Origin: an uncultured delta proteobacterium
Lineage (GTDB): Bacteria; Myxococcota_A; Polyangia; Polyangiales; Houyiibacteriaceae
NCBI GenBank assembly: GCA_963786865.1
Contig: CAWBAV010000011.1
Location: 258,173-322,172, forward strand
Length of the DNA stretch: 64,000 nt
Direction of reading: 5' to 3'
Position 1 is the stretch's first letter. Each line of letters starts with the position of its first letter. The position numbers and the translations under genes are program-made. The notes below the pieces were generated by a model. That model did not search any database. It was given only the letters and a program-made list of their open reading frames with translations, and was not told the origin of the DNA. Positions 6,237 through 35,182 of the stretch are shown one piece after another.

Positions 6237-6487
6237 TGGTCTACCCCCCTATGGGTATTTATTAGCCTTCAAGGGTGTAGTTTGCTATGCACCTCTACAC
6301 TTGCAGACAATAAAATACACCTTTAAGGCCTAGTTCCAGGTGTCGTGGGGTGCTGCTCTGGCGCACCCATGTGGCTTGGTTTGTGAGAACCCGCCGGGGC
6401 GCAGCTGGCATCCGCAGCGTCTCCAAGTGTCGATGTCCCACGCTCTGCGCCGATGGAGTCGTGGCGGCGAAGAGTGTCGCTAGTGGC

Positions 6488-10783: not shown

Positions 10784-10792
10784 GGCAGTCTC

Positions 10793-11239: not shown

Positions 11240-11241
11240 GA

Positions 11242-13069: not shown

Positions 13070-13163
13070 GCGATGTTTGCCGCAGATCAGGCTAGCGGAT
13101 TGCGAGAGGCCGCGCCAGCTATCTCCGTCTACCAGCGTTGGCCGCGTCTGCGATGTGCGGGGT

Positions 13164-14282: not shown

Positions 14283-14371
14283 GCGTTCGTACCCTCTAAC
14301 GATGACGCCGACAGCATAGCAGAGAGAGAGTGTGGCAGGTGGGGGGCCTCATCGACTAATCTCTTAGAGCG

Positions 14372-15481: not shown

Positions 15482-15484
15482 ACG

Positions 15485-18400: not shown

Positions 18401-18713
18401 CGAGCGCCTCGTCGAAGTCGGCGTCGATTGCATCGCCGTCGAAAAGGATGTCGGTGAGGGCCTCAGCGCGTTCGACTTAATCGACGACGGCCGCGTCGAC
18501 CTCGTTATCAACATTCCGAGAGAGTACGACGAGCAAGGCCGCCCCGACGGCTATCTGATCCGCCGGCGTGCCGTGGACGCGGGCATTCCGCTCATCACGG
18601 ATCTCAAGCTCGCTGGGGCAGTCGTGGAGGCGTTGAGGGCGAGGCGGCCCCGCGAGCTCGGCGTGGTCGCTTGGGACGACTACATTGGCCGGAGGTCCAC
18701 GCCTCTGAGTTGA
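15485..18713 (+). pseudogene. carB: carbamoyl-phosphate synthase large subunit, single frameshift at the C4 run 18139-18142
   Basis: The 952-aa ORF is canonical CarB up to ...LDYVGVKVP. The remaining MGS-like domain ([28 protein letters not shown]...) is in the next frame from 18144. Removing one C restores [10 protein letters not shown]. Confidence 0.9.
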
Positions 18714-20186: not shown

Positions 20187-23100
20187 GTGACTTACTTCAG
20201 CAACGGCAACATCTTCAGCATTCTCGCATTCTTCATTTGGATCCCGATCGCGCTCTATGGAATGCGACGCTGGCCTCCCGCGAAGGCCATGGCCTTCCTT
20301 TTCTTCGGTGGGCTCCTCCTTCTTCCACAGGTCGTCTTCTTCAAGCCACCAGGGCTTCCCGAATTCAGGAAGCTCGACATCATCCTGGTTTGGATCTTAG
20401 TAGGGGCCCTGATCTTTCATCGCCAACGCTTGAAGTCGGCGCCCAAGAGCGGGTGGTTCAGATTCTGCCTTGGGCTCCTCATCGCCGGATCGATCTTCAC
20501 CGTTTTCTTGAACGCCGATGGATTCAGGGTCGGGTCCCGACATGTCCCCGGGCAAGTCCCTTACGACGCTGTTCACTTGGCAATCATCGCTCTGCTCAAC
20601 TCGGTCCTTCCGTTCTACCTGGGCGCCGTCATGTTCAGGAGCTCGAAGGATCTTCGAGTGCTCCTGACGACGATGGTGGTGGCGTCGCTCCTCTATTCTC
20701 CCCTTCAATTTCGTGGAGCTGATCCTCAGCCCACAGCTGCACCGTTGGGTATATGGATTCCACCAGCACGGCTTCTCACAGACAGTTCGCGACGGCGGTT
20801 ATCGCCCGATGGTGTTCATGGCGCACGGGCTCGCGGTCGCGCTCTTCACCTCGCTGACGGTCATGGCAGCAGCGGCCTTGACGAAGACCAGGGCTAAAAT
20901 ACTTCGATTCCGCCCTCTTTGGGTCATGGGGTATCTGTGGCTGGTTCTGTTCCTGTCCAAGAGTGTCGCATCTTTTCTCTACACCGTAATGGCCGTGCCA
21001 CTCGTGTTCCTCGCGTCCCCCCGAGCTCAAGCTCGCGCTGCCGCCGTCCTGGTGTTGATCCTATTCCTCTATCCCGCAGTGCGGGCGAGCGACCTGATCC
21101 CATTGGAGGCAATCAAAGAGCTCTCCGAGGAACAATTCGGGCACGAGAGGGAGGAGTCGCTGATGTTTCGTCTGGAGAACGAAGGGGTCCTGCTCGATCG
21201 AGCCTTGGAGCGCCCCTGGTTCGGGTGGGGAGGCTACTGCCGGGCTTGTTTGTTCGACCCCTGGACCGGGGACATGGCCCTGGAATCGACACGTGACGGC
21301 GACTGGATCATCCAACTCGGCGACGCAGGGATCGTTGGCTTCCTCGGCAAGTTCGGACTTCTGCTATTCCCAGTCCTCGCTCTGCGGAGGCGAATGAAGT
21401 ATTTGCCGCGTGGATCCGATCGGCGCCTCATCGCCGGGCTGGGGCTCATGATCGGCTTTGCCAGCTTCGACCTGATCCCGAATGGCGACTTCACTCGGAT
21501 CGTCTTCGTTTTGAGTGGGGCGCTCTGGGGCTGTCTGACGGGCATTTCGCAGCAAGCAGCCGTAGTGCGAAGCAGACTGAGGTCGGAACGCATCGCGGCT
21601 GCGAACGAGGAGAGAGGCGCCCCCTCGGTCCCTTTGGCGAGCATGGCCGGGCTTTGCGCTCTGCTGGTCACGGCGCCCGCCGCGGCTGCCATTCCTGATG
21701 CACTCGGTGGTGGGTTCGCCGGGCCAGGCGTCGAAGGGGCTTACTATGCGAATCCCGACCTCCAAGGCACGCCCTCCTTCACCCGCCGCGACCTTCGAAT
21801 CGACTTCGACTGGGGCGAGGTGCGACCCGTCGGCGGCTCCACGGCGGAGCCGTACCGGTCGTTTCCCCGTGATGGGTTCTCCGTCCGCTGGAGCGGCCAG
21901 GTCATTCCACGGTTCAGCGAAGCCTATACGTTTCTCGGGGAAGCCGATGATGGCGTTCGCATCCGAGCTCGCGCGTCGGGGCAGTCGAATTGGAGCACCT
22001 TGGTCGATCGCTGGAATGAGAGTGGCGCTTTCGAATCCAAGCCGTTCACGATGCGCGCGGGCGAGCTCTACGATATCGAAGTCGAATATCGCGAGCTCGA
22101 CCAGACCGCGCAGTGCCGTCTCATGTGGAAAAGCGCCAGCACGCCGAGCGAAGTCATTGATCCCGTTCGCCAGCAGGGGATCAACCTCGGCCGCTATGTT
22201 TGGGCGGGTTATCTCTGGGCCGACTTGATGAAGAGTGCGCGATACGGTCAGCGAGCCGAAGAGACGGGTCCGCAGGGATGGCCGAAGGCATCAGGGGTCG
22301 AGCTCGTCGTCAGTGAGCGAGAGTACGCCAGTGATCCTGAGATGTCGGGCACCTATCTCCTGCGCTTCGAGGGTCAGGCAGAGGTTCGCCAGGAGTGTTG
22401 CGACCAGCCCGTCTTCCAAGCAGGCGGGGGAACGTTCGAACGGAACCTACCGAGAGGAGCCGGATACGACGCCTCCACCAACACCACCACGTCGTTGATG
22501 ACGCTTTCCGGCTCGAGGACGTTGGTCACATTCGAGGATACACGACGAGGCCCAGATCACAGCGGTGACGGAGTCGGCCGTATCCAGCTCATGCGGCCTA
22601 TCGCACAAGGCAGCGCGGAACATCATCGGATCGATGAGATCGGCTATCGTCCATTCAAGCAAGCCATCGAAGACAATTTCACCTTGCTACGCTTCGTCGC
22701 ATCTGCCGACAATCGCGGTGAGGATTGGTCCGAGCGAACGCTTCCTGATTATGCATTCTTCGTAGGTCCGACGGGGCAGCTGAACTGGGAGTACATGGTC
22801 ATGCTCGCCAACGAGACGGGCAGGGACCTGTACATCACGATCCCGATCGGGGCGAACGATTCGTATTTCGAGAAGCTCGCCATGCTGATGCGCTATGGAT
22901 CCGACGGGCGCGAGCCGTATCGGGGTCCAACCGCAGATCCGATCTACCCCCCTCTCAATCCCAACGTGCGCGTCTACGTCGAGGTGGACAACGAGATTTG
23001 GAATTGGGCCTTCGAAACGACGGATGCGGCTCAACGCTTGACCGAGGCCGAACACGACGCAGATTCGGCCATCTGGAAAGCGATCGACTACGACGCTCAG

Positions 23101-24670
23101 GCCGGTGATCCCACGGGCATCAAGGCGATTCGGCGCTGGCATGCGCTTCAAACGGTGCAAGCCAGCAATGCGTTCCGGCGCGTTTGGGGGGACGAGTCCA
23201 TCGGTCCGAGGGTCAGACCGCTCGTCGAGTACCAGTACGACAACTATCAAGACACCGCGCTCTCGTCTCTCGACTTCATCGACGGCTACTACAACAACCG
23301 ATCGAGCGTGAACGTCAGCGATCCGCACCCCGTCAGCTACTTTCTCTGGGGCGCCGGGGGAGCGGCGTACTACGGCCTCGACAACCGTACCGGACAGCAG
23401 GATCACACGCTCTTCCGAGACGCCGGCTTCGAGGACAGGTCGGTCGAGCCAAAGACCTTGCGATTCAGGCCATCAGGCACGGCTTGGACCTTCGAGGGCA
23501 AGGCTGGGCTGATTCGCCCTGACGGTGAGGATGAAATCGAGGGGCTCAGCAACCTACCGACGCCGACTTCCGGCAAGCAGGCCGCCATCCTGCTCCAAGA
23601 TGGGTCGATTAGCCAAGATGTACGATTCGCAATACCGGGGACCTATGCCATCGGCTTCAACGCTGCCGGCTCCGGACAAGACTGGCCCGGCTACCAGCGT
23701 TTCGACATTCTGTTGGATGGCCGCAGAGATCAGTCCGCGGGACCAGGTCGACTATCGTGTGAGCCCTCGCACGGCATCCATCGGAGGTTGGTCGCGAAGT
23801 CTCAATAGCCTCGACGAGGAGTGGGGCAGTGCGGTGTTCCAGATCGACGAGCCGGGCTTGCATACGGTGAGCTTCGTAGCTCGTGGAGAATCGGTCGACT
23901 ACTTGTTGGTCGACAACGTCCGGATTGCGAGCGCCGACGCGATCATGACCAGCGGGTTCCACAAAGGGGAGGCACTCGGTCAAGAGGCCGCGTCCGACTT
24001 TGCCTATCAGCTCAGGACCCAAGCGAAGTACGCACGGGCATTCGGACTTCAGGTTGTTGCCTATGAGTCCGGCTGGTCGCTCGGCGGCGACTTCAACCAG
24101 TTGCCAATTCAGAATTGGTGCAAGCTACGCGACCCCAGGGCCACGGCAATCAATGATCAGGCGATCAACTGGTGGGACCAGTCGGGGAGCTCCTTGACCG
24201 TCTGGGGTGTCTACGAGTACTGGCCCACGCATGATTTCGCCGGCGCGGGAAGCTATGCGATCATGCGGAGTATCCACGGAGCGGGGCAACGGCTCCGGGC
24301 CGAGCCGACGTATGGACGATCCCTCCCTACGACTCTGCGACTCGACGAGGCCGATTGGTCGCACCGCCACGAGACGAACGGGCCTTGGTGGCGTCAGTAC
24401 ATTCCTTGGCTGAACGATCCAGCGGACCAATGGCACGCCTGGATGCTGATCGCCCCAACGACGCGGAGCTACTCGTTCGGCCTGCAAGGTCGAGGAAGCG
24501 GTCGCGTCGTCGTCGAAGTCGACGGCGAGCCGATCGGCGAGCTGAGCTCTCTGGAGCAGACGGCGAATGCGCCGCTGACCGTGAAGCTCACGCAAGGGGC
24601 ACACGCATTGCGCATCGTCATGGTAGGCACTCGGCTCGAGCTCGATCGGATCGAAGTCAGAGCGGACTAG
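20187..24670 (+). pseudogene. O-antigen-ligase/Wzy-like polytopic membrane domain fused to PA14, clan GH-A-like and CBM-like domains; two frameshifts (20709-20712, 23721-23722)
   Basis: Three ORFs join as ...LLYSPLQF|VELILSPQ... and ...FDILLDG|AEISPRDQVDY... The Wzy_C-like block is RLENEGVLLDRALERPWFGWGG. The PA14 domain lies at about 21724-22146 (GAYYANPDLQG...FSVRWSGQ...GDDGVRI...YDIEVEY). YVEVDNEIWNW (the NE lies at 22990-22995) is a clan GH-A-like acid/base motif. The C-terminal beta-sandwich-like region reads LTVKLTQGAHALRIV...LDRIEV. Confidence 0.6.
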
Positions 24671-24773: not shown

Positions 24774-26021
24774 TTGGAGTCCGAGCTCATGGCTGCCCCC
24801 GATTTCCTTTACAGGTCCCTAGATGCTTCCGACGACGAGGCTTCCGGAGCCAACTCGGAGGACCGGGTCTACCTGCAGCGCATCAGCGTTCCCTTCGAGT
24901 ATCCGGTGCGGTTCACTCGCGGGGTGTTCAAGACCGGCAACCCGGCGCTGCACGAGGTCATCAGCCGCCTCGAGCCGGACCGCCGACACCGGGTGTTCCT
25001 CGCGATGGACAGTGGGGTGGCCGACGCCTGGCCCGATCTCGGCCAACAGATCGAGGACTATTTTCGTTGCCATTCAGACAAGCTCGAGCTGCTCGCACCG
25101 CCAGAGATCCTACCGGGCGGGGAGCGCGCCAAGCAGATGCCCGAGCTCGTCGACCGCCTGTATAAGCGAATCCACGACCTCCGCCTCGATCGGCACTCTT
25201 TCTTTGTAATCGTCGGTGGCGGCGCGGTACTCGACCTGGCCGGTTACGTGGCTGCCACCACGCACCGCGGTGTTCGCACCGTTCGCATCCCGAGCACGGT
25301 GCTCGGGCAAAACGACACTGGAATTGGCGTCAAGAACGGCGTCAATGCGTTCGGCAACAAGAACTACATCGGGACCTTCGCTCCGCCCTTTGCCGTCATC
25401 AACGACGGTGATTTCATTTCCACCCTGTCCGATCGGGATGCGGCTGCCGGAATCGCAGAATCGATCAAAGTCGCGCTGGTCCGCGATTCGGAATTCTTTG
25501 TCTGGCTCGAAGCCCATGGGCGGGACCTGGCCCAACGGAGACCCGACGCGATGAACTACATGATCCGTCGGGGGGCCGAGCTCCACATGACGCACATCGC
25601 AGAGTCCGGCGATCCCTTCGAGCGCGGGAGCGCGCGACCTCTGGATTTCGGCCATTGGGTGGCGCACAAGCTCGAGACGATGAGCGGCCATCGCTTGCGG
25701 CACGGTGAGGCGGTCGCCATCGGAATGGCTGTGGATAGTCGCTACAGCGTCGAGGCCGGTCTGCTCGAGGAAGCCGCGCTCGACCGCATTTGTAATGTGA
25801 TCGATCGCATTGGTCTTCCACTATGGGACGAAGCACTGATGTCCACGAAGGATACCGATCAGCGAGTGATTCTCGACGGCCTCGAAGAGTTTCGTGAGCA
25901 TCTGGGAGGACGCTTGACGGTCACGCTGCTGAGAGACATCGGCAAAGGCATCGAGGTGCACGAAATGGATCGGGATCGAATCCTGAGCGCTCTGCGTTGG
26001 TTGGAAGACAAATGGAGCTAG
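24774..26021 (+). CDS. eboD: 3-dehydroquinate-synthase-family sugar-phosphate cyclase (EboD)
   Basis: 415 aa with DHQS-like motifs (GGGAVLDLAGYVAAT, RIPSTVLGQNDTGIGVKNG, HG.AVAIGM). It is adjacent to the other five ebo families. The start is uncertain (TTG 24774 or ATG 24789). Confidence 0.7.
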   Translation: MESELMAAPDFLYRSLDASDDEASGANSEDRVYLQRISVPFEYPVRFTRGVFKTGNPALHEVISRLEPDRRHRVFLAMDSGVADAWPDLGQQIEDYFRCHSDKLELLAPPEILPGGERAKQMPELVDRLYKRIHDLRLDRHSFFVIVGGGAVLDLAGYVAATTHRGVRTVRIPSTVLGQNDTGIGVKNGVNAFGNKNYIGTFAPPFAVINDGDFISTLSDRDAAAGIAESIKVALVRDSEFFVWLEAHGRDLAQRRPDAMNYMIRRGAELHMTHIAESGDPFERGSARPLDFGHWVAHKLETMSGHRLRHGEAVAIGMAVDSRYSVEAGLLEEAALDRICNVIDRIGLPLWDEALMSTKDTDQRVILDGLEEFREHLGGRLTVTLLRDIGKGIEVHEMDRDRILSALRWLEDKWS

Positions 26022-27220
26022 CGTCCTCGGACGCTCATTTGACTTATTGCACGAACATTCATCCGGGCGAGCGCTGGGATGAAGTGTTTGCCAATCTGCA
26101 GCGACACGTTCTGAGGGTGAAGCAGGCGTGCGCCCCCAATGCAGACTTCGGCGTTGGCTTGCGGCTGTCCGCGCAAGCAGCGCAGAGCCTTCGCGAACCC
26201 GAGGCATGCGAGGAGCTCGCAGTGTTCTTGCAGGCCAACGACCTCTACGTCTTCACGATCAATGGCTTTCCGTACGGTGAATTCCATCAGACCCGGGTCA
26301 AGGAGCAAGTGTACCGTCCGGACTGGCGCGATCCCCGAAGGCTCGCCTACAGCAATTGCTTGGCCGAAATTCTGGCGAAGCTTCTCCCCAACGGTGAGCT
26401 ACAGGGCAGTGTCAGCACCGTGCCCGGTGGGTTTAGGCCGGAGATACAGAGCGAGTACGACGTCAACGCGATCGTCGGGCACCTGCTAGATCATGCCGCA
26501 CACCTTCACCGCATCCACGAATCGACGGGCCGGATCATTTCCCTGGCTTTGGAACCCGAACCGTATTGCTTCATCGAGACGATCGAGGAGACCTGTCGCT
26601 TCTTCGATCGTCAGCTGTTCTCGGACACCGCGGTCAAGCGGTTTGGGAACATCGCGGGGTTGAGCGTTGCGGAAGCTGCTCTAGCGTTGCGCCGTCATCT
26701 GGGCGTTTGTTTGGACGCATGTCATGCGGCGGTGGAATTCGAGGACGCCAACGGATGCATCGAGTCACTACGCCGGCATGAGATCGACATCAAGAAGCTT
26801 CAGCTGAGCGCTGGCCTTCGGATTCCCAACCCCGAGAGGATCCCGATCGCGGTCCTCGAGCGTCTCGTCGACGATGTCTATTTGCACCAAGTCGTCGAGC
26901 GCACAGACGAGGGAACCCTGCGACGATTCGTAGACCTGCCGGGGGCCTTGGAATCATTGCGTGCCGGTCGTTCCACCGGCGGCGAGTGGCGCATTCATTT
27001 TCATGTTCCCATCTTCCTCGACGAGCTGGAACCTTTCGAAAGCACGCAAGACTTCTTGCGTGAGCTTCTTGTTCTTCAGGCATCGGTAGGCATATCGCGA
27101 CATCTCGAGGTGGAAACCTATACTTGGGAAGTGCTGCCGGCGGCTTGGCGTCAGACGGACTTGGTTGGTGCAATTGCCCGAGAGCTCTCCTGGGCCAAGA
27201 GCTGTCTCGACGCTCCGTAG
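26012..27220 (+). CDS. eboE: xylose-isomerase-like TIM-barrel protein (EboE)
   Basis: The ORF begins at 25997, but the likely start is ATG 26012 (MELASSDAHLTYCTNIHPGE), which overlaps the eboD end. Size and context fit EboE. Confidence 0.65.
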   Translation: MELASSDAHLTYCTNIHPGERWDEVFANLQRHVLRVKQACAPNADFGVGLRLSAQAAQSLREPEACEELAVFLQANDLYVFTINGFPYGEFHQTRVKEQVYRPDWRDPRRLAYSNCLAEILAKLLPNGELQGSVSTVPGGFRPEIQSEYDVNAIVGHLLDHAAHLHRIHESTGRIISLALEPEPYCFIETIEETCRFFDRQLFSDTAVKRFGNIAGLSVAEAALALRRHLGVCLDACHAAVEFEDANGCIESLRRHEIDIKKLQLSAGLRIPNPERIPIAVLERLVDDVYLHQVVERTDEGTLRRFVDLPGALESLRAGRSTGGEWRIHFHVPIFLDELEPFESTQDFLRELLVLQASVGISRHLEVETYTWEVLPAAWRQTDLVGAIARELSWAKSCLDAP

Positions 27221-27231
27221 TCGTTCAGGCT

Positions 27232-28101
27232 TCACGTTCCGGGAACATAGCGATGAAGAAGCAGCGTTGTGCCGAAGCCGCCGAAGGCCAGGAGCATAGG
27301 CACGCCTCCTCCGTGCATTCCGATCAGGAGCGCATCGACCAGGGAGATGCCTGCGATTAGCCCCCCCACCGCCCGCGGGATCTGCACGCGCGATGTCACG
27401 AACAGGTACGAAAGGGCGTAGCCGCTCCACGCGGCCAGTGCGATCAGTCCCAGAAGCACGGGCGTCTGGGTCGATTCGGTCAAGCCATAAAAGAGCGGTG
27501 CAGCCAGGAATGCCAGCGGCCAAGCATCCTTCACGCGTCCCCGGTTCTCGTGTTTGGCCACTTGGGTAAGCCCCATCAGGTAGCTCAGAAGCACGGCACA
27601 CCCCAATGCCAAGTCCAGAGTGAATGCGGGTCGAAGCGCCCACGCGGCCATGACGTAGAGCAAGATCCGGCACATGCCCATCAGCAATGGACTCAAGGGA
27701 TTGGTCTTGTGGTACGCGTCATAGATCAGCACCAACAAAGCCAGGACCAATCCCGTGCCGACGGTCGGCCAACTTGCTCCATCTCGCGGCAATGCTGCAA
27801 GCACCGTGAGCAGGCCGATCCCAGCAAGCAGCATGGCAAATCCGAGAGCGAATACGGCGCGCTCGGTCACTTCGCCCGAGGGAATGGGGCGCTCCGGGCG
27901 CTCGTGCTGATCGAGCTCAGCGTCGAACGCGTCGTTCAGGTACATCCCGCCTACGTAGAACAAAGACCCTGCGAGCATGAGAATCGACAAGTCGAGGACG
28001 CGGTAATTCACGCCGGCAAGCACGACCCCGGTCAGGACGTTGGTCCAGACGGTCGGCAGGTTCGATACCCGCCCGAGCCTCAGGGCGACGCGCAGGTTCA
28101 T
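27232..28101 (-). CDS. eboC: UbiA-family prenyltransferase (EboC)
   Basis: 289 aa and polytopic, with LRLGRVSNLPTVWTNVLTG and the Asp-rich NDAFDAELD motif. Confidence 0.8.
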   Translation of the reverse strand: MNLRVALRLGRVSNLPTVWTNVLTGVVLAGVNYRVLDLSILMLAGSLFYVGGMYLNDAFDAELDQHERPERPIPSGEVTERAVFALGFAMLLAGIGLLTVLAALPRDGASWPTVGTGLVLALLVLIYDAYHKTNPLSPLLMGMCRILLYVMAAWALRPAFTLDLALGCAVLLSYLMGLTQVAKHENRGRVKDAWPLAFLAAPLFYGLTESTQTPVLLGLIALAAWSGYALSYLFVTSRVQIPRAVGGLIAGISLVDALLIGMHGGGVPMLLAFGGFGTTLLLHRYVPGT

Positions 28102-28120
28102 GACGCCTTGCCCGCAGATC

Positions 28121-29503
28121 TCATGGACGGCCGAATACGTGATCCAAAATCAACCCCTTGATGTCGGTTGCCGCGACGGGACCGGCGGGAAGCATCTCGG
28201 GATCTGATGTGATGATGAGCGGCCCCGCGTCTGGATCGTCGGTCACGCGGCCATGGCTGCCTTGGACCATCGAGGCATCGAGCGGAATGACGTCCATCAG
28301 CATGCGAAACCCCAGGCGCTTCTTCAGTAGGCGCCAGCCGATTCCAAGCCTCGGAAATCGCAACCCCGGATCGACGAACATTTCGACCGGGTCGTACCCG
28401 GGCTTGCGGTGGATGTCTACGCATCGGGCGAAATCCGGCGCTCGGTCGTCGTCGAGCCAGTAGTAGTACGAAAACCACCGATCGGCCTTGGCGATGGCCA
28501 CCAGCTCTCCCGAACGCGGATGATCCAGCCCGTACGCCGCCTTGCCAGCGTCGTTCAAGACCGCCTCGACACCATCGAGCGCCAGCAGCAAGTCCCTCAC
28601 CTCCGTCACACGTGCCGGGTCGCGTACGTAGACGTGCGCGATCTGATGATCGGCGACGGCAAATGCGTCGCAGGCCCCAGCGTCCAGCAACTCGCGCCTC
28701 CGTTCCTCGCGGACTGCGATGAGACCCGCTTCGCGCAGCGCTCGGTTGATGTGAATCGCGCCGGTCACCCGGGTAATCCCGTACTCCGAGAGCACGATCA
28801 CTTTCGTCCCATCGCGTTGCACGTGGGCGATGAGCTCACCTGCAACTTCGTCCATTTGGCGGAGCTCTGCGGCGATTTCGGGTGCGTCGGGTCCGAGCTT
28901 CTGCAGGCAGTAGTCGAGATGCGGCAAGTACACCAGGCTGAGGCTGGGACGATGCTTGTCGTGCACGTATCGGGCGCAGTCGGCTATCCAGCGGCTCGAG
29001 GCGATGTCGGCATTGGGACCCCAGAAATTGAAAAGCGGGAACTGACCGAGGTGTTCCTGCAACTCGTCCCGCAGCCCCGACGGGTGACTGTGGATGTCGG
29101 GAAGCTTGCGTCCGTCGGCGAGATACATCGGTCGCGGGGTGACGGCGAAGTCGACTGACGCGTACATGTTGTACCACCAGAAGAGCTTGGCGCAGCTGAA
29201 GCTCGGGTCGCGTCGCTTGGCGGCCTCCCAGACCTTCTCTCCTCCGACCAGGTGATTCGACTGCCTCCACAACCAGACTTCCGCCAAGTCGCGGAAATAC
29301 CATCCATTGGCCACGATGCCGTGATCGCGTGGCAGCGCGCCGGTGATGAAGGTCGACTGGGCCGCGCAGGTGACGGCGGGTGTGACGGTTTGCAGCTGGC
29401 GCAAACCTCCTCGATTCGCCAGAGCCCGCAGATGTGGCGTGTTCGGCCCCAGGAGCTTGGGCGTCAATCCGACCACGTTGAGGACCAAGGTGCGATGCAT
29501 CAA
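28121..29503 (-). CDS. eboF: nucleotide pyrophosphatase/phosphodiesterase, alkaline-phosphatase superfamily (EboF)
   Basis: 460 aa. LVLNVVGLT...TPAVTCAAQSTFITG (nucleophile Thr context), PHLDY and SEYG are typical of the AP/NPP family. Confidence 0.75.
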   Translation of the reverse strand: MMHRTLVLNVVGLTPKLLGPNTPHLRALANRGGLRQLQTVTPAVTCAAQSTFITGALPRDHGIVANGWYFRDLAEVWLWRQSNHLVGGEKVWEAAKRRDPSFSCAKLFWWYNMYASVDFAVTPRPMYLADGRKLPDIHSHPSGLRDELQEHLGQFPLFNFWGPNADIASSRWIADCARYVHDKHRPSLSLVYLPHLDYCLQKLGPDAPEIAAELRQMDEVAGELIAHVQRDGTKVIVLSEYGITRVTGAIHINRALREAGLIAVREERRRELLDAGACDAFAVADHQIAHVYVRDPARVTEVRDLLLALDGVEAVLNDAGKAAYGLDHPRSGELVAIAKADRWFSYYYWLDDDRAPDFARCVDIHRKPGYDPVEMFVDPGLRFPRLGIGWRLLKKRLGFRMLMDVIPLDASMVQGSHGRVTDDPDAGPLIITSDPEMLPAGPVAATDIKGLILDHVFGRP

Positions 29504-29515
29504 CCCGCCTGCGAT

Positions 29516-30400
29516 TCAACCTTCCACCCGTGGAGACTGCCCGCGTAACACCGAATTTTCCTCGAAAAGCTCGCGCTGATCCACCTTTGGCCGCCCGCTA
29601 TCGGCACCCAGATCGAGACGACCGCTCTTGCCAAACAGCTCGATCGGATTGTGCCATACGATCTTCTCGATTTGAGCTTCATCGATACCCGCTAGCCGCA
29701 TCGCTTTCACGGTCTTGGGAACCTTGATCGGGTCGGAAACACCCCAATCGGCAGCGCTGTTGACGATGATTCTCTCCGACCCGTACTCTAGGACCAGCTG
29801 CGCCATGCGGTTCTCGTCCATCTTGGTGGATGGATAGATCGAATGGCCCGCCCAACATCCGGTGCGGAGCACCAAGGGAAGTGTCTCCTCGTTGTTGTGA
29901 TCAATCAGCACCATGTCCTCCGCGATACCGACATCGCGCACCAATGCCAGCGAACGCTCGGTGCCCTTCTTCTTGTCTCTGTGCGGAGTGTGAATCAAAG
30001 CCGGCATGTCGAACGACATGGCAAGCTCCAACTGAGCCGCAAAGTACTTCTCTTCGGCGCTGGTCATGTCGTCGTAGCCGATCTCCCCGACAGCCACGAC
30101 GCCGTCCTTCTCCAAATAGCGAGGCAACAAGTCCATGACCCCGTCGGCCAGGTCTGCGTCGTTGGCTTCCTTCGGGTTCAAGCCGATCGTGCAGAAGTGG
30201 CGAATGCCAAACTGACTCGCACGGAAACGCTCCCAGCCGCATAGTGAAAGGAAGTAATCTTCGAACGTGCCGACGTGCGTGCGCGGCTGACCGAGCCAGA
30301 AGGCTGGCTCGACGATCGCCACGATGCCCGCGTCCGCCATCGCCTCGTAGTCGTCGGTGGTCCGGGAGGTCATGTGGACGTGGGGGTCGAACATCTTCAT
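29516..30400 (-). CDS. eboB: TatD-family metal-dependent hydrolase (EboB)
   Basis: 294 aa with MFDPHVHM (HxH), EIGYD and IHTPH. Its start overlaps the eboA stop by 4 nt. Confidence 0.8.
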   Translation of the reverse strand: MKMFDPHVHMTSRTTDDYEAMADAGIVAIVEPAFWLGQPRTHVGTFEDYFLSLCGWERFRASQFGIRHFCTIGLNPKEANDADLADGVMDLLPRYLEKDGVVAVGEIGYDDMTSAEEKYFAAQLELAMSFDMPALIHTPHRDKKKGTERSLALVRDVGIAEDMVLIDHNNEETLPLVLRTGCWAGHSIYPSTKMDENRMAQLVLEYGSERIIVNSAADWGVSDPIKVPKTVKAMRLAGIDEAQIEKIVWHNPIELFGKSGRLDLGADSGRPKVDQRELFEENSVLRGQSPRVEG

Positions 30401-31104
30401 TGATTGCTCCTCATGCCTAGGGCGTTGATTGCGCCCCGTAACTCCTCGATGTCGGTCGGAACCGTTCTGCCCGCAGCGATACGCTCAGCTTCGTAGTCGG
30501 AGACCATGCGGCCCAAGTCTGGATTGCAGCGAGGGCGCCATTCATGAACTCGTGCCAGCGGGATTCCGAGAAACAGCGCCTTCAGCACGAGTTGATTGAA
30601 GTTCAGCTCTGGGAACTGGGCGGCTGGGTAGGCGTTCTCGCAGGCGATGGCCTCGAAGACCTCCTGCACTTGCGTGCGGCTGGCCTCGGTCGCCGTCTTG
30701 AGGAACCGCTCAGGCTCCGGCAGCAAGGCTAGGCTCTTGAGCAGCGCACAGCGCTCTGCGTTGTCCCCCTTGCGAAACGCTTCTTCAACCAGGGCCGTAT
30801 GCTCTTCCGTGGGCAGAGTCTCGCCCGCCGCCAGGAGCATGAAGGCACGCGCCAGCTCAGCTGCAGACCAACGCGCCGGATCGATCGCGCCGACCTCCCG
30901 AAGCGCGTCGAAATCCTCTCGTTCGAGATGCCAATCGAGCTGTCGCACGCGGCGACCGGCTGCTGCGTACGCTGCAAAGTATGGAATGCGCTGAAACGGC
31001 TGGTTTGGCAACGGCAGGGCCCGGACCAACCAGTCGATCGAAGCGCGCTCCGCGTGTCGCGCCAGTACGCCCAGTAGGATTGGTGCTCTCGACTCCCGTG
31101 CCAC
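30397..31104 (-). CDS. eboA: EboA-family protein
   Basis: 235-aa helical protein with no other recognisable domain. It occupies the first position of the eboA-B operon half. The call rests on context plus remembered family features. Confidence 0.55.
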   Translation of the reverse strand: MARESRAPILLGVLARHAERASIDWLVRALPLPNQPFQRIPYFAAYAAAGRRVRQLDWHLEREDFDALREVGAIDPARWSAAELARAFMLLAAGETLPTEEHTALVEEAFRKGDNAERCALLKSLALLPEPERFLKTATEASRTQVQEVFEAIACENAYPAAQFPELNFNQLVLKALFLGIPLARVHEWRPRCNPDLGRMVSDYEAERIAAGRTVPTDIEELRGAINALGMRSNQ

Positions 31105-31161
31105 GGAAGGAGGCTAGCCTGCCCGCCTCCGGCAAGCCATTGACGGGCGCCGATGCTCCGG

Positions 31162-31782
31162 TTAGCGGCTGCTCTTTCCGAAGAAATGCTCGATACGCAG
31201 TCGATCGAGCTCCGGTTCGAGGGCCGGATCCTTTTCACCACTTCGCTTGGCGATCAGTGGCGCCCAGGGCAAGTTTTCGAACTCATCCTTCCAGCGTCTG
31301 ATCAGCTCATCGAGCTTCGCGACCGGCTTGGCGGGAACGCCGGCGACGACGGTGTTTGCCGGGACGTCCCGGCTCACGACGGCCCCGGCTGCCACGATGG
31401 CGTTCGGCCCGATGCAGACATTCGGAAGGATCATCGCGCCCTCTCCTATGAAGACGTTGTCGAAGACGTCGATCTTACCGACGCGATCGAGGTGGAGGCC
31501 CAACGCGCGGTTGAACACATGGACCGATCCATCGTGGCAAAGAAACGTAGCGGTGCCGATCCGGATGTTGTTTCCCAGGCGGATGAACTTGGGGTTGCTG
31601 GCTTCCTTCATCAGCGCGCTCGGCAGGATGTAACAGTCCTCGCCCTGTGCGTAGAAGGTATTGCGATGCTTGAGGTAAGCCGCCCATTCATAACCGTTCG
31701 GTCCGGTGCGTCGATAGAGCCACTCGAAGCGGCCATGCTCCCACGCAAACCAGCGAATGAGCCTGTTGAAAAGGCGTCTCAT
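31162..31782 (-). CDS. hexapeptide-repeat (LbH) O-acetyltransferase
   Basis: 206 aa with a run of [LIV]G..xx hexapeptides: IGNNIRIGTATF..., VFIGEGAMILPNVCIGPNAIVAAGAVVSRDVPANTVVAGVPAK. Confidence 0.85.
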   Translation of the reverse strand: MRRLFNRLIRWFAWEHGRFEWLYRRTGPNGYEWAAYLKHRNTFYAQGEDCYILPSALMKEASNPKFIRLGNNIRIGTATFLCHDGSVHVFNRALGLHLDRVGKIDVFDNVFIGEGAMILPNVCIGPNAIVAAGAVVSRDVPANTVVAGVPAKPVAKLDELIRRWKDEFENLPWAPLIAKRSGEKDPALEPELDRLRIEHFFGKSSR

Positions 31783-31906
31783 AGTAGTCTCCTAACGGGG
31801 TCTTCCCGCCACGATACCTATCGCTTCTCCCAAGAACCATGGCGGAAGCTCAGCGACCGCGCCAATCTTTCAGCTCGAGGGAGAATGCCTTGGCTCTTTG
31901 CCACGG

Positions 31907-33167
31907 TCAAAGCGCTCCGCCGACCACGTCCGGTGAGTTGAGCGCGGGGGCAGCATGCCTCTCATTTCCAATCGCCAGTATTTCGGATATTCGGTCAGCC
32001 AGGAGCTCCCCCAGGCGGCGGTGACCATCCGGGTTGAAGTGACAGAAGTCGACGAATACGCCTGGATGCTCCTCCAGCACCGCCGCACCGTCGAGAAGCG
32101 CGACATGGCTCTCAGCGGCCACCTCACGCATGATCTCATTGTACGCGGTGTCCAGACGAATCAGCGTCCCGCCGGAAAAAGAACGGTAGATTGATGGAGC
32201 GAGCGAGACTTCGGCCGCCTTCGCATCGTCACCTTTCGCTTCGTACGCCTTCACGAGATACAGGCGTGCCAAGTCGCGGAACATCATCTGCGATTGCGTG
32301 GCGGAGCTCAGGTATGCGATCGCAGTGTCGTAGTCGCCGCTCGCCAGGCTTGCGATTCCCCTCTTCAAGTGATCGGACTGCATCGGGTCATCGCGCAGAA
32401 GAACGAAGAGCACCGGAATGTTCAAACGTCTTGCGCTCCGCAGCGATCCGAGAAAGGTTGCTTCGGTAGGAGGCCTCGTCGACGCGCGGTTCCAGTCCTG
32501 TAACGTCCACCTCGCCAACGTACTTTGGAACCAGTCCGACCTTTCGCATGACGCGACGCAGACCCCGATAGAAATGTGAGATCTCCACGAGTCTTGCAAT
32601 TCTCCCCATCGTACTTCGAGAGGCTTCGTAGGCGCGTTTGAACTCTTCCGGGCCGTCCATGGACTCCGGCGGCAAGACGTATCGCCGGTCGTTGAAATTG
32701 AACGAGACAACGAGGAGATCTGGTTTGAGAATCGGAAGATACCGCTCGACGACGACACGTCCCTGGTACGAGCTGTAACCGGCGACGCCGAGATTGATCG
32801 CATCGACATCCGGCAGAAGATTCTCCGTAACTTCGACAAAGGAGGCTGGGGTCGGAGCGCCCCAGCCGGAGGTGTTGGAGTCGCCGACGAACACGATCTT
32901 CTTTTTGCCGAGCGAGCCGGTGATCTCATCCGAGTCGACGGTCAAATAGCCTTCGGCGTCAAACTCGCGATCGTCCAGTCCGACGCGACCCGCGTAGCCT
33001 GGTCTCCTCTCCCAGCCTACGGCAGGGGAGTGGATCATCCACGGCTCAGAGCTCGCCAGCGCGCTCCCAGCGATGTCCTCATCGATGGTGCCCGCGATGC
33101 GTGCAAGCAACTCGAGCATGACAAACACGGCCGCGAAGACAAGCGCGGTGAACAACAACTTCTTCAT
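31907..33167 (-). pseudogene. membrane-anchored SGNH hydrolase-family protein with a TPR-like insert; one frameshift near 32437-32450
   Basis: It starts with MKKLLFTAL.. at 33167. Motifs are IVFVGDSNTSGWG, NLGVAGYSS and VSFNFNDR. The text continues in another frame as ARRLNIPVLFVLL...GDYDTAIAYL...VDFCHFNPDGHRRLGELLA. Confidence 0.65.
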
Positions 33168-33187
33168 TCGAGCTCTTCCATTGGGAC

Positions 33188-34186
33188 TCAGGAGCCTTTG
33201 TATTCGATGAGTGTGGAGCGATTGCCAGTGAGCCTGCCCCACTGAAAGCGGAGCCAACCCACGGCCTCGGGCAGCTTGGCGAGCATCAGGAAGAAGGCCA
33301 CGGTCCACGGTCGGGATTGGCCTTCGCTGCGCAGGCGGCGCGCGATTCGGATCACGTTGACTGGGTAAGCGAGCAGCAGCAGTAGCGAGACCCCGCTAGT
33401 GAACGGTGCCCCGGCGATTGCGAGCACGGGGAGAAGCAGACCCCAGGCGACGATCCGCCTCGACTCCGGTACCCCCATTCTCTCGGGCGGAGCGCCGTGC
33501 AGCCACGCCCCCTCGGCGTAAGCGTGTCCTGCCCGCGTCGCGCGCTTCCACCATTGAGAAAAGCGCGTCATTGCGACGTCGTGGAGCGCCATGTCGGCGT
33601 CGAGCCGTCGGATCTTCCAACCGCTTTGACGTAGGCGCACACAGAGCTCCGGCTCCTCGCCTGCGATCAAGCCGGGCAGGAAACCGCCAACCGCCTGGAA
33701 CGCCCTGACGCGCATCATCGCGATCCCGCCGCAGCTGTCGGCATCGCCAACGGGCGTATTCCATTCGACGTCGCAGAGGTAGTTGTAGACGCTCCGATGC
33801 GGAAACCGTTCCCTCAGGCGGCCAGCTGCGGCGGCGTATTCCGGGCTCCTCTCGAGGAAGCCCACGGCGCCTTCGATCCAACCATCGACGAGCTCGCAAT
33901 CTCCATCGATCAGCTGCGCGTATTGCACCTCCGGGGCGACCCGCGCTAGCCGAGCGACGCCTGCATTTCGCGCGCGTGCTGCCGTAAAGGGAAGCTGAGG
34001 ATCGAGCTGCACGACGTCGACGCCGATCGTTCGCGCGAACTCCACGCTTCCGTCCGACGATCCGGAGTCGACATACACGAGATGAGATGCCTGTTGCCTC
34101 AGCGAGCGCAAGCATACCTTGAGTCTTTCGCCCTCGTTCTTGCCGATGGCTACCGCACCTACCAAAGGGAGTCCCGCCGAGCTCAT
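33188..34186 (-). CDS. family-2 glycosyltransferase
   Basis: Motifs are VAIGKNEGERLKVCLRSL, YVDSGSSDGS and ARARNAG. The ATG at 34186 overlaps the upstream stop (ATGA). Confidence 0.8.
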   Translation of the reverse strand: MSSAGLPLVGAVAIGKNEGERLKVCLRSLRQQASHLVYVDSGSSDGSVEFARTIGVDVVQLDPQLPFTAARARNAGVARLARVAPEVQYAQLIDGDCELVDGWIEGAVGFLERSPEYAAAAGRLRERFPHRSVYNYLCDVEWNTPVGDADSCGGIAMMRVRAFQAVGGFLPGLIAGEEPELCVRLRQSGWKIRRLDADMALHDVAMTRFSQWWKRATRAGHAYAEGAWLHGAPPERMGVPESRRIVAWGLLLPVLAIAGAPFTSGVSLLLLLAYPVNVIRIARRLRSEGQSRPWTVAFFLMLAKLPEAVGWLRFQWGRLTGNRSTLIEYKGS

Positions 34187-35142
34187 ATCTCGAACCCCTT
34201 CACGAGTGTGCTGTTGCGAAGAAAATCCCACCAGAAACGAGGCGGTTCGACGTTTGGTTTCCTCTGGATGACGCGACGAATTCGAAAGGTCGTATAGCCC
34301 GCCAGAAACGCGAGGTCTGCAAGCATGGCTTGCAACTTGCCGCGATTTTTCACGAAGAAGCGGCGTCGCGATTCGAACCAGTAGTCTGGGTACCGATGAG
34401 GCTCTTGTCGCTCGTCCGTGATGCCGGTCGCCTGCGCCGCGAGGTGCGTGACGACACTATCGGGTACATAGTGCGCGGGCCAGCCGGCTTGCCGCGCTCG
34501 AAAGCAGAAATCGACTTCGTCGAAGTATAGGAAGTACCCGTCGTCGAGGAGCCCGATCTCATCGAAGACCTTCCTTCGGATCATCATGGCCGAGCCGCTG
34601 ACCCAGTCCACCGGCATTGGCTCGTCACCCAGGTCGGGTTGGAGCTTTCGTTTACTCAGGAGCTTCGTGAGGACGCCGAGCTTGAAGCCATCGACCAGCT
34701 CGCTCGCGGCGCTTGGGAATCGAAACGCGGAATGGACCTGCTGGCCGTCGCCGTCCAACACCCGTGCACCGGCAATGCCGACGTCAGGCCGGCCCTCCAT
34801 GAACTCGAGAAGCGCGCTGATGGCACCTTCATGCACGTAAGCATCGGGGTTCAAGAGCATTACGTAGTCCAGACCCTCGCTGGTATGAAGGTAGGGCTGA
34901 ATGCCGGCGTTGTTGCCAGAGCTGTATCCGCCATTGTCTGGAAGGGGCATCAGTGTGCACCAGCTCCATTGGCCGGCCTCGATTGCGCTGCCGATGATTT
35001 CGACTGAACGGTCTCCCGAAGCGTTGTCGGTAACGACGACGTGCATCGAGCCTATCCGTTCGACCTCGTGCCTCAGTGACTCGAGACAACGGACCACCAG
35101 GTCCGGTGTCCGGTAGTTCAAGACGACGACGAGAACCTTCAT
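34183..35142 (-). CDS. family-2 glycosyltransferase (rhamnosyltransferase-like)
   Basis: It starts MKVLVVVLNYRTPDLVVRCLESL at 35142. Motifs are VVTDNASGD and DNGGYSSGNNAG. Confidence 0.8.
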   Translation of the reverse strand: MKVLVVVLNYRTPDLVVRCLESLRHEVERIGSMHVVVTDNASGDRSVEIIGSAIEAGQWSWCTLMPLPDNGGYSSGNNAGIQPYLHTSEGLDYVMLLNPDAYVHEGAISALLEFMEGRPDVGIAGARVLDGDGQQVHSAFRFPSAASELVDGFKLGVLTKLLSKRKLQPDLGDEPMPVDWVSGSAMMIRRKVFDEIGLLDDGYFLYFDEVDFCFRARQAGWPAHYVPDSVVTHLAAQATGITDERQEPHRYPDYWFESRRRFFVKNRGKLQAMLADLAFLAGYTTFRIRRVIQRKPNVEPPRFWWDFLRNSTLVKGFEI

Positions 35143-35182
35143 TCGACTGACATTATCGGAAACGATTGGACGCGCCGCAAAG

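What the first reader, a model, noticed from the sequence alone, without database searches (positions are those of the whole stretch)
24774..31104. Complete six-gene ebo cluster (eboA-F) embedded in a polysaccharide island, split into convergent eboDE and eboCFBA halves
All six families that define the ebo cluster sit together in 6.3 kb. They are a DHQS-like sugar-phosphate cyclase, a xylose-isomerase-like TIM barrel, a UbiA prenyltransferase, an alkaline-phosphatase/NPP enzyme, a TatD hydrolase and an EboA-type protein. From memory, this cluster was defined from eustigmatophyte plastids and many bacteria. It was linked to periplasmic export of scytonemin precursors in Nostoc punctiforme and to the nematode-repellent EDB locus of Pseudomonas fluorescens NZI7. 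Its chemical product is still unknown. Here there are no scytonemin genes. The gene order is rearranged (A-B-F-C facing D-E), and the neighbours are a Wzy-like polymerase/ligase, acetyltransferases and glycosyltransferases. That context suggests a prenylated cyclitol-phosphate made for envelope or EPS biology, for example a carrier lipid or a substituent.
Basis: partly seen in the sequence, partly recalled or inferred. Interest (0 to 1): 0.8.

Follow-up and report, generated by a model that had tools for sequence, protein, structure and literature searches.

The report
Known ebo cluster in sugar-polymer island
This is an intact copy of the widespread six-gene bacterial "ebo" cluster, recently linked to making the seaweed-growth signal thallusin. 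It sits inside a polysaccharide gene island only in one small uncultured lineage, so it is a fairly ordinary new member of a known system.

Summary
Six intact genes at 24789-31104 encode EboD and EboE on the + strand, facing EboC, EboF, EboB and EboA on the - strand. EboD, EboE and EboA pass curated NCBIfam cut-offs. EboB and EboF are 52-69% identical to their counterparts in other ebo clusters.

EboC belongs to a divergent subclade. It scores 120 bits against the EboC model (cut-off 250), but it always sits beside eboDE and keeps every strongly conserved EboC position.

The flanks are a real Wzx/Wzy-type polysaccharide island.

"Product unknown" is outdated. [quoted passage not shown] A 2026 preprint links the ebo genes to thallusin/saccharoquinoline biosynthesis, with EboC farnesylating hydroxyquinaldic acids.

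The polysaccharide neighbourhood is seen in four of five close, uncultured, probably myxobacterial relatives, and it is rearranged among them. It is absent from more than 80 other ebo loci, and a related genome has the island without ebo. A conserved leader upstream of eboA persists whatever gene lies upstream.

Best reading: a self-contained thallusin-type meroterpenoid cassette that landed in a variable glycan island. A functional link to polysaccharide remains possible but unlikely, at about 0.1.

Verdict: new member of a known kind, low to moderate interest.

The parts
24789..26021 (+). [quoted passage not shown] The ORF opens at TTG 24774; the likely start is ATG 24789.
   Evidence: PRK06203 scores 555 bits (cut-off 333) and aroB TIGR01357 scores 219 (cut-off 305). 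EboD from a canonical Bacteroidota ABCDEF operon gives the same pattern, 586 and 248 bits. It matches 102 of 106 strongly conserved family columns.
26012..27220 (+). eboE: xylose-isomerase-like TIM-barrel protein. The ORF opens at 25997; the ATG at 26012 matches the 402-aa call in the source contig.
   Evidence: NF035939 TIM_EboE scores 460 bits (cut-off 250). P0001 is 100% identical. It matches 88 of 90 conserved columns.
27232..28101 (-). eboC: membrane UbiA-type prenyltransferase of a divergent EboC subclade. It is inverted relative to the nearest outgroup clusters.
   Evidence: PF01040 scores 62 bits. NF035940 scores 120 bits, below the cut-off of 250. The same low score (102-120) is seen for the UbiA genes next to eboDE in L001, L009, L084 and L085, against 417 bits for a Bacteroidota EboC. 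The NDxxDxxxD and ERPERPIPSG motifs and 26 of 26 conserved columns are kept.
28121..29500 (-). eboF: alkaline-phosphatase / nucleotide-pyrophosphatase superfamily enzyme. The likely start is ATG 29500; the ORF opens at TTG 29503.
   Evidence: PF01663 scores 214 bits. It is 52-68% identical to EboF in other ebo clusters. It matches 152 of 159 conserved columns.
29516..30400 (-). eboB: TatD-fold metal-dependent hydrolase.
   Evidence: PF01026 scores 55 bits. It is 56-69% identical to EboB in other clusters. It matches 77 of 81 conserved columns. The closest solved structure is 3guw, E = 1.6e-28.
30397..31104 (-). eboA: all-alpha helical-repeat protein, probably a non-catalytic scaffold. Its stop overlaps the eboB start by 4 nt.
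   Evidence: NF035938 EboA_domain scores 152.6 bits (cut-off 50). All 120 listed homologues carry PF28008 EboA. The AF2 model has pLDDT 95.3 and 13 helices. No PDB fold match has E < 0.25.
31105..31161 (-). 57-nt spacer between the hexapeptide acetyltransferase gene and eboA. It holds a conserved leader of about 40 nt (...ATGGCTTGCCGGAGGCGGGCAGGCTAGCCTCC...).
   Evidence: The leader is conserved in the window, L001, L002, L090 and L091, although the upstream gene differs among them.
20187..24670 (+). Context only: a roughly 1493-aa polytopic PA14-domain protein with a weak Wzy_C match, upstream of eboD. It is split into three ORFs here by two frameshifts.
   Evidence: PA14 scores 49 bits; Wzy_C scores 27 bits, below the cut-off of 31.7. 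Intact 1493-aa orthologues exist in L001 and L002. It is not next to eboD in L091.
31162..35244 (-). Context only: hexapeptide acetyltransferase (31162-31782), a frameshifted SGNH/GDSL gene (31907-33308), and GT2 genes at 33188-34231 and 34183-35244. All are on the same strand as eboABFC.
   Evidence: Pfam hits are. Orthologues lie next to ebo in L001, L002 and L091.

Best explanation
This is a functional, self-contained ebo cassette in an uncultured, probably myxobacterial ("deltaproteobacterial") genome.

Proposed pathway:
1. [quoted passage not shown] This is shown for other EboDs and inferred here.
2. EboE (TIM barrel), EboB (TatD-fold hydrolase) and EboF (phosphatase/phosphodiesterase), perhaps organised by the helical-repeat protein EboA, convert the cyclitol plus L-aspartate into a hydroxylated quinaldic acid. 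This route is only postulated in the literature, and the individual steps are unassigned.
3. The membrane prenyltransferase EboC farnesylates that acid, and possibly cyclises it, to give saccharoquinoline or thallusin-type meroterpenoids. This is shown in vitro for EboCs from three other phyla and inferred here.

The location inside a Wzx/Wzy polysaccharide island is a lineage-specific accident of a variable genomic island. It is not evidence that the product is a polysaccharide carrier or substituent.
For: Family membership:
- EboD, EboE and EboA pass curated cut-offs.
- The PRK06203 model also captures EboD from canonical ABCDEF operons.
- All six proteins keep 89-100% of strongly conserved family positions.
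- All six are intact although neighbouring genes carry frameshifts.

Co-clustering:
- The six genes cluster together in 80 GTDB loci. Gene orders are ABCDEF in Bacteroidota and D-E-C / F-B-A in proteobacterial and "delta" loci.

Literature:
- EboD is DEI synthase (PMC12904256).
- ebo presence tracks thallusin production in 35 strains.
- Deleting eboB, C, E or F abolishes production.
- Aspartate is incorporated.
- EboC from Bacteroidota, Planctomycetota and Actinomycetota farnesylates 6,7,8-trihydroxyquinaldate.
- A Pseudomonadota producer with a different gene order was confirmed, and Myxococcota carry the core genes (10.64898/2026.05.21.724671; PMC9235831).

Context is not conserved:
- Loci at 58% EboE identity or less have unrelated flanks.
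- phmmer searches with 15 window EPS proteins find only isolated single hits in 9 loci outside the lineage, never an island.
- L087 has the carAB-linked island with GT2 and Wzx orthologues but no ebo.
- Within the lineage the flanks are shuffled (L091, L090).
- The leader upstream of eboA is conserved regardless.
- GC3 of the ebo genes equals that of the flanks.
Against: - The thallusin link is a single, not yet peer-reviewed preprint, and the roles of EboA, B, E and F are unassigned.
- The window's EboC belongs to a subclade that fails the EboC equivalog cut-off (120 against 250 bits). I could not place that subclade relative to the EboCs that have been assayed, so its acceptor or prenyl donor could differ.
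- The ebo halves sit on the same strand as EPS genes with short gaps: 57 nt from the hexapeptide gene to eboA, and 118 nt from the PA14 protein gene to eboD.
- GT2 orthologues lie beside ebo in four of five close relatives, and the hexapeptide gene in three.
- No product or expression data exist for this organism.
Confidence: 0.62

Rival explanations
1. 2018. In this lineage the ebo enzymes make a prenylated cyclitol(-phosphate) lipid that serves the surrounding polysaccharide pathway as a carrier, an anchor or a substituent.
For: - eboABFC is co-directional with GT2-GT2-SGNH-hexapeptide genes, with gaps of 124 nt or less.
- eboDE follows the PA14/Wzy-like gene by 118 nt.
- GT2b and GT2c orthologues lie within 5 kb of ebo in four of five close relatives. 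The hexapeptide gene lies directly upstream of eboA in three.
- Klicki et al. drew a parallel between a putative ebo lipid and capsule-export lipid carriers (PMC6282210).
- The EboC subclade is divergent.
Against: - There is no EPS context in more than 80 other ebo loci.
- L087 has the island without ebo.
- The flanks are rearranged. The GT2 pair is inverted and four genes away in L091, the hexapeptide gene is absent in L001, and a GSDH-PKD gene replaces it in L090.
- The conserved leader upstream of eboA suggests its own transcription start.
- All catalytic family positions are conserved with clusters that have no EPS link.
- Experiments in other phyla point to an aromatic meroterpenoid.
Confidence: 0.1
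2. Same early chemistry but a different end product. The divergent EboC subclade uses another acceptor or prenyl donor, giving a cyclitol-derived meroterpenoid other than thallusin.
For: - The window-type EboC scores 102-120 bits on both the EboC and the SCO3242 models, against 417 bits for Bacteroidota EboC. It is only 28-42% identical to Bacteroidota EboC.
- Accessory genes differ by lineage. GSDH and cytochrome c genes sit next to ebo in Alphaproteobacteria and L090, and a ferredoxin gene in L085.
Against: - EboCs from three phyla, including the equally divergent actinomycete type, accept the same substrate.
- A Pseudomonadota strain with a non-canonical gene order makes thallusin.
- All 26 strongly conserved EboC positions are kept.
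Confidence: 0.15
3. A generic 'metabolite traffic' role. The ebo product helps move some other cytoplasmic metabolite into the periplasm, as proposed for scytonemin monomers in Nostoc.
For: ebo deletion mutants in Nostoc accumulate scytonemin monomer in the cytoplasm (PMC6282210). NCBI names EboE and EboA 'metabolite traffic protein'.
Against: No scytonemin genes or other obvious cargo pathway appear in the 64 kb window. The preprint argues that the Nostoc phenotype is indirect and shows that N. punctiforme makes thallusin.
Confidence: 0.08
4. The locus is decaying or an assembly artefact, given the many frameshifts nearby. Alternatively, EboB acts as a TatD-type nuclease in DNA-damage resistance, like YtkR4.
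For: At least eight frameshifts lie within 30 kb. The yatakemycin paper speculates about ebo-like clusters.
Against: - All six ebo ORFs are full length and conserved.
- The carB frameshift is one extra C in a C-run in an essential gene, so it is most likely a sequencing error.
- The same arrangement appears in four independent assemblies.
- EboB is only about 24% identical to YtkR4 according to that paper.
Confidence: 0.03

Closest known systems
Canonical eboABCDEF operon of Bacteroidota, Cyanobacteria and eustigmatophyte plastids (Yurchenko et al. 2016, PMC5133447)
   Same: The same six protein families are present, all in one locus. EboD, EboE and EboA pass the curated models. Identity to the Bacteroidota proteins is 56-62% for EboB, 50-57% for EboF and 45-52% for EboD.
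   Different: The order is D>E> <C<F<B<A in two convergent units, rather than a single co-directional ABCDEF operon. EboC is only 28-42% identical and falls below the EboC equivalog cut-off.
Proteobacterial / 'delta' type ebo clusters: D-E-C facing F-B-A (L009 MFD05674.bin.2.184, L012), and L005, L010 and L085
   Same: These hold the closest sequences outside the window's lineage (EboF 68%, EboB 69%, EboD 57%, EboC 51-52%). They share the same EboC subclade and the same split into an eboDE-containing unit and an eboABF-containing unit.
   Different: Here eboC has been inverted and joined to the A-B-F unit. This arrangement is shared with L001, L002, L090 and L091. The outgroup flanks carry no polysaccharide genes.
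Thallusin/saccharoquinoline biosynthetic gene set (Kallscheuer et al. 2026 preprint, 10.64898/2026.05.21.724671)
   Same: All four core genes (eboB, C, E, F) are present, plus eboD and eboA. Myxococcota is listed there among the phyla carrying the core set.
   Different: No producer from this lineage has been tested. The gene order and the EboC subclade differ from those of the enzymes assayed.
Scytonemin-linked ebo of Nostoc punctiforme (Klicki et al. 2018) and the EDB cluster of Pseudomonas fluorescens NZI7
   Same: The ebo genes are homologous.
   Different: No scy genes were found among the window's annotated ORFs. The three extra EDB genes were not tested, because I had no reference sequences.

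Membership tests
ebo cluster (eboA-F) | EboA-family protein | tested here: met
   NF035938 EboA_domain scores 152.6 bits (cut-off 50). All 120 listed homologues carry PF28008 EboA. The stricter EboA_family subfamily model scores 147, below its cut-off of 320.
ebo cluster (eboA-F) | EboB: TatD-fold hydrolase orthologous to those in ebo operons | tested here: met
   PF01026 scores 54.9 bits (cut-off 27). It is 56-62% identical to EboB of canonical Bacteroidota operons. It matches 77 of 81 conserved columns. No dedicated curated model is available.
ebo cluster (eboA-F) | EboC: UbiA-superfamily prenyltransferase that passes the EboC equivalog model | tested here: not met
   NF035940 scores 120 bits, below the cut-off of 250. 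The UbiA genes next to eboDE in L001, L009, L084 and L085 also score 102-120, whereas Bacteroidota EboC scores 417.
ebo cluster (eboA-F) | A UbiA-type prenyltransferase positionally linked to the other ebo genes, with the Asp-rich motif intact | tested here: met
   PF01040 scores 62 bits (cut-off 34). NDAFDAELD and ERPERPIPSG are shared with all 18 ebo-linked prenyltransferases aligned, and 26 of 26 conserved columns match.
ebo cluster (eboA-F) | EboD: sugar-phosphate cyclase of the EboD clade, not AroB | tested here: met
   PRK06203 scores 555 bits (cut-off 333) and aroB TIGR01357 scores 219 (cut-off 305). EboD from a canonical ABCDEF operon shows the same pattern. Whether the genome has a separate aroB cannot be seen in 64 kb.
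ebo cluster (eboA-F) | EboE: TIM-barrel protein | tested here: met
   The NF035939 equivalog scores 460 bits (cut-off 250).
ebo cluster (eboA-F) | EboF: alkaline-phosphatase/NPP family protein orthologous to those in ebo operons | tested here: met
   PF01663 scores 214 bits. It is 52-68% identical to EboF elsewhere. It matches 152 of 159 conserved columns.
ebo cluster (eboA-F) | The six genes are co-located and co-conserved in relatives | tested here: met
   All six lie within 6.3 kb. The same set is found in L001, L002 and L091 and in most of the 80 GTDB loci. L090 shows A-B-F-C and the end of eboE before its contig ends.
Thallusin biosynthetic gene set | [quoted passage not shown] | tested here: met
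   The core set is defined in 10.64898/2026.05.21.724671.
Thallusin biosynthetic gene set | The organism or cluster produces thallusin or saccharoquinoline, and EboC farnesylates hydroxyquinaldic acid | not testable with these tools
   This needs LC-HRMS and enzyme assays.
Scytonemin-associated ebo | Adjacent scyA-F genes | tested here: not met
   Pfam scans of ORFs of 180 aa or more across the window show no ScyA-type (TPP enzyme) or ScyB-type (amino-acid dehydrogenase) genes.
EDB cluster (P. fluorescens NZI7) | Three additional EDB genes beside the six ebo homologues | not tested
Wzx/Wzy-dependent polysaccharide locus (flanks) | Flippase, polymerase and glycosyltransferases | tested here: inconclusive
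   A Wzx flippase (PF13440, 181 bits), GT2 x4 and GT4 are clear. The putative Wzy is only a sub-threshold Wzy_C match, 27 or 16 bits against a cut-off of 31.7.

The most novel reading that the evidence does not exclude
In this uncultured lineage the ebo genes have been wired into the transcription units of a Wzx/Wzy polysaccharide locus. The ebo product, a prenylated cyclitol-derived molecule, would then act in glycan assembly or export as a membrane carrier or anchor, or as a signal coupled to matrix production. That would connect the thallusin chemistry with the 'metabolite traffic' and capsule parallel proposed for Nostoc.
Probability: 0.08. Interest if true: 0.7.

Novelty: new member of a known kind. 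Interest (0 to 1): 0.25.

Why it matters
If the mainstream reading holds, this adds an uncultured, probably myxobacterial lineage to the list of likely thallusin-type producers, and it documents one more gene-order variant. That is useful for surveys of this cross-kingdom signal but not surprising, because the 2026 preprint already lists Myxococcota among phyla carrying the core genes.

Two points could be worth following up:
- The proteobacterial/"delta" EboC subclade escapes the curated EboC model, so automated annotation will under-call ebo clusters of this type.
- In this lineage the cassette stays beside GT2 and hexapeptide acetyltransferase genes. This gives a cheap test case for the older, unproven idea that ebo products interact with polysaccharide export.

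Tried and rejected
- The exact-sequence look-up of the 407-aa EboE ORF failed, because the source called a 402-aa product (P0001).
- The genome-contig scan did not recover the window's own genome. The best hit was 55% identical.
- Taxonomy could not be pinned down.
  - CarB hits at 75-77% mix Polyangiaceae, Sorangium and Minicystis with Burkholderiaceae and Gammaproteobacteria.
  - The listing of cluster members returned no names.
  - The best clues are an EboA homologue at 77% from a "Deltaproteobacteria bacterium" MAG and a PSD-domain protein.
- The EboD paper PMC11567786 is not held, so diagnostic EboD active-site residues could not be checked. I used the conserved-column test instead.
- The promoter and terminator scans were uninformative. 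There were 2 promoter-like sites against 3.5 expected, and no terminator at the relevant gene ends.
- No inverted repeats flank eboC that could explain its inversion.
- The window has no Rfam families and no tRNAs.
- The window has no second copy of any ebo gene.
- PDB sequence searches gave nothing for EboE or EboA. Foldseek with a confident EboA model gave only weak HEAT/ARM-like matches, E of 0.25 or higher.
- I considered whether the GSDH-like and cytochrome c pair at 54519-56936 is the ebo-linked GSDH seen in Alphaproteobacteria. It is not orthologous: 25% identity over 168 aa.
- I considered recent horizontal transfer of ebo into the island. There is no compositional signal, with GC3 of 0.70-0.77 in both ebo and flanks.

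Full report
**1. What is there**

Profile searches identify them as follows:

| ORF | Assignment | Key scores |
|---|---|---|
| 24774-26021 (+) | EboD, DHQS-like cyclase | PRK06203 555 bits (cut-off 333); aroB TIGR01357 219 (cut-off 305) |
| 25997-27220 (+) | EboE | NF035939 460 bits (cut-off 250) |
| 27232-28101 (-) | EboC, UbiA-type prenyltransferase | PF01040 hit; NF035940 120 bits (cut-off 250) |
| 28121-29503 (-) | EboF, Phosphodiest/NPP enzyme | PF01663 214 bits |
| 29516-30400 (-) | EboB, TatD-fold hydrolase | PF01026 hit |
| 30397-31104 (-) | EboA | NF035938 152.6 bits (cut-off 50) |

- Likely true starts are ATG 24789 (eboD), ATG 26012 (eboE, matching the source's own 402-aa call P0001) and ATG 29500 (eboF).
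- The two units converge with 11 nt between their stop codons.
- The window holds no second copy of any ebo gene.

**2. Are they real ebo genes?**

EboD from a canonical Bacteroidota ABCDEF operon (L014) gives the same model pattern as the window protein. It scores 586 bits on PRK06203 and falls below the aroB cut-off. So PRK06203 is in effect the EboD-clade model, and the gene is not an ordinary AroB.

I aligned each window protein with 12-17 counterparts from other phyla. The window proteins keep the following shares of strongly conserved columns, and the mismatches are conservative:

| Protein | Conserved columns kept |
|---|---|
| EboC | 26 of 26 |
| EboD | 102 of 106 |
| EboE | 88 of 90 |
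| EboF | 152 of 159 |
| EboB | 77 of 81 |
| EboA | 32 of 36 |

The one membership test that fails is the EboC equivalog cut-off.

- The UbiA genes beside eboDE in L001, L009, L084 and L085 all score 102-120 bits on the EboC model. That is about the same as their score on the actinomycete SCO3242 model.
- A Bacteroidota EboC scores 417 bits.
- The window protein nevertheless carries NDAFDAELD and ERPERPIPSG, like every ebo-linked prenyltransferase aligned.
- I read it as a distinct EboC subclade that the curated model does not cover.

EboA folds with high confidence (pLDDT 95.3) into 13 helices forming a helical repeat. It has no significant PDB neighbour, which suggests a scaffold rather than an enzyme.

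**3. Organism and data quality**

- The window comes from a 411,613-bp contig with no name in the protein collection.
- The closest relatives are all metagenomic.
- CarB is 75-77% identical to proteins from Polyangiaceae, Sorangium and Minicystis, but equally to some Burkholderiaceae and Gammaproteobacteria.
- A PSD1-5 domain protein lies at 856-2547.
- The nearest named EboA (77% identity) is from a "Deltaproteobacteria bacterium" MAG.
- An uncultured Myxococcota-like lineage is the best guess, but this is not settled.

Compared with intact orthologues in L001 and L002, the window carries at least eight frameshifts. They fall in carB, the PA14 protein gene, an SGNH gene, an FkbH-like gene and others. 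A further apparent one splits the carbamoyltransferase, judged from its two overlapping ORFs. The carB frameshift is one extra C in a C-run. These look like long-read indel errors rather than decay. None falls in an ebo gene.

**4. Context**

The flanks are a polysaccharide island. It contains:

- asparagine synthase, GT2 x4 and GT4;
- a carbamoyltransferase next to carAB;
- several SGNH/GDSL genes and a hexapeptide acetyltransferase;
- an FkbH-like gene, MBOAT and a polysaccharide deacetylase;
- a Wzx flippase;
- epimerases, a sugar C-methyltransferase and RmlC;
- a roughly 1493-aa membrane protein with a PA14 domain and only a sub-threshold Wzy_C match.

On the minus strand, GT2c, GT2b, SGNH, the hexapeptide gene, eboA, eboB, eboF and eboC form an uninterrupted same-strand run with gaps of 124 nt or less. 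On the plus strand, eboD follows the PA14 protein gene by 118 nt.

**5. Does ebo travel with the polysaccharide genes?**

Within the lineage, largely yes:

- L001 and L002 (EboE 86% and 80% identical) have carAB-(SGNH)-PA14 protein-eboDE facing eboCFBA-(hexapeptide-SGNH)-GT2-GT2.
- L091 has hexapeptide-eboABFC facing eboED. Its GT2b and GT2c orthologues are 3-5 kb away but inverted, with four unrelated genes between. No PA14 protein gene sits next to eboD.
- L090 has a GSDH-PKD gene directly upstream of eboA instead.

Outside the lineage, no:

- L087 and L088 (CarB 89% identical) keep the carbamoyltransferase-carAB region with GT2 and Wzx homologues (GT2b 64%, Wzx 45% identical). They have no ebo within 10 kb.
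- The next EboE relatives (58% identity or less) have unrelated flanks.
- tblastn and phmmer searches with the window's EPS proteins against all loci give only isolated single hits in 9 loci outside the lineage, never an island.

A segment of about 40 nt upstream of eboA is conserved in all five lineage members, whatever gene lies upstream. This suggests the eboABFC unit has its own leader or promoter.

Gene orders across loci:

| Group | Order |
|---|---|
| Bacteroidota | ABCDEF |
| L009, L012 and some Alphaproteobacteria | D-E-C facing F-B-A |
| Window lineage | D-E facing C-F-B-A (eboC inverted) |

No flanking repeats explain the eboC inversion.

**6. How it most likely works**

- UbiA-297, which is EboC, farnesylates 8-hydroxyquinaldic acid (PMC9235831).
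- The 2026 preprint (10.64898/2026.05.21.724671) reports the following:
  - ebo presence matches thallusin production across 35 strains from four phyla, plus cyanobacteria;
  - single deletions of eboB, C, E or F in Stieleria maiorica abolish thallusin;
  - L-aspartate is incorporated into the quinoline core;
  - EboCs from three phyla farnesylate 6,7,8-trihydroxyquinaldate ethyl ester.
- The preprint also lists Myxococcota among phyla carrying the core genes.

I therefore infer that this cassette makes a thallusin/saccharoquinoline-type meroterpenoid. Only the family assignments are shown here; the chemistry is transferred from other organisms.

**7. Rivals**

- The carrier-lipid/EPS idea has a literature precedent in Klicki et al. 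and some local support from the operon-like layout. It is contradicted by the lack of any wider association and by the shuffled flanks. I give it about 0.1.
- A different end product, because of the divergent EboC, gets about 0.15.
- A generic "metabolite traffic" role gets about 0.08.
- Decay, artefact or DNA-repair roles get about 0.03.

**8. Verdict**

This is a new member of a known kind, with a minor gene-order variant and a lineage-specific neighbourhood. Interest is 0.25.

Noticed in passing
window 12101-12168, 18135-18142, 20701-20711, ~23726, 32424-32437, 35584-35886, ~37038, ~38026: There are at least eight frameshifts relative to intact orthologues in L001 and L002. They affect carB, the 1493-aa PA14 protein gene, an SGNH gene, an FkbH-like gene and a hypothetical gene; the carbamoyltransferase split is inferred from its two overlapping ORFs. 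The carB one is an extra C in a C-run, so these are probably long-read assembly errors rather than pseudogenes.
   Followed up: partly
L004-L007, L084 (12193-15770), L074, L090 (1160-4153): GSDH-type (PQQ sugar-dehydrogenase-like) genes, often paired with cytochrome c genes, sit next to ebo clusters in several Alphaproteobacteria. A GSDH-PKD protein gene lies directly upstream of eboA in L090. This may be a recurrent accessory oxidoreductase. The window's GSDH-like gene at 54519-55976 is not orthologous.
   Followed up: partly
window 31105-31145 (- strand): A segment of about 40 nt just upstream of eboA, containing the palindrome GGCTAGCC, is conserved in the window, L001, L002, L090 and L091, although the upstream gene differs. 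It may be a leader, promoter or operator of eboABFC.
   Followed up: partly
L001 13505-15007; L002 11221-11943: In L001, eboA and eboB are called as one 500-aa fusion. This reflects a frameshift within eboA, not a true fusion. In L002, eboC is 240 aa and lacks about 49 residues (two predicted helices). L007 and L015 show similar gaps.
   Followed up: partly
window 10749-18713: carA and carB lie directly beside a carbamoyltransferase. In relatives this neighbourhood also has SxtJ and DUF5989 genes (L087). That hints at a dedicated carbamoyl-phosphate supply for an O-carbamoylated glycan.
   Followed up: no
window 2726-7438 (- strand) and 856-2547: Three paralogous predicted lipoproteins with weak polysaccharide-lyase-like domains sit in tandem, next to a PSD1-5 ('planctomycete cytochrome/DUF1592') domain protein.
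   Followed up: no
window 20187-24670; L001 4338-8819: This roughly 1493-aa polytopic protein has a PA14 domain, a sub-threshold Wzy_C match and a long uncharacterised C-terminal region. It is conserved next to eboD in the three carAB-linked loci but absent at that position in L091.
   Followed up: partly
L009 16106-17152: The nearest outgroup cluster has a second UbiA-family gene about 1 kb beyond eboA, in addition to eboC.
   Followed up: no
L056, L057, L059, L067 (~4.5-5.7 kb): In several Algoriphagus-type loci a hexapeptide-repeat transferase gene lies immediately upstream of eboA, transcribed divergently. This echoes the hexapeptide-eboA adjacency in the window lineage, but it may be coincidence.
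   Followed up: no
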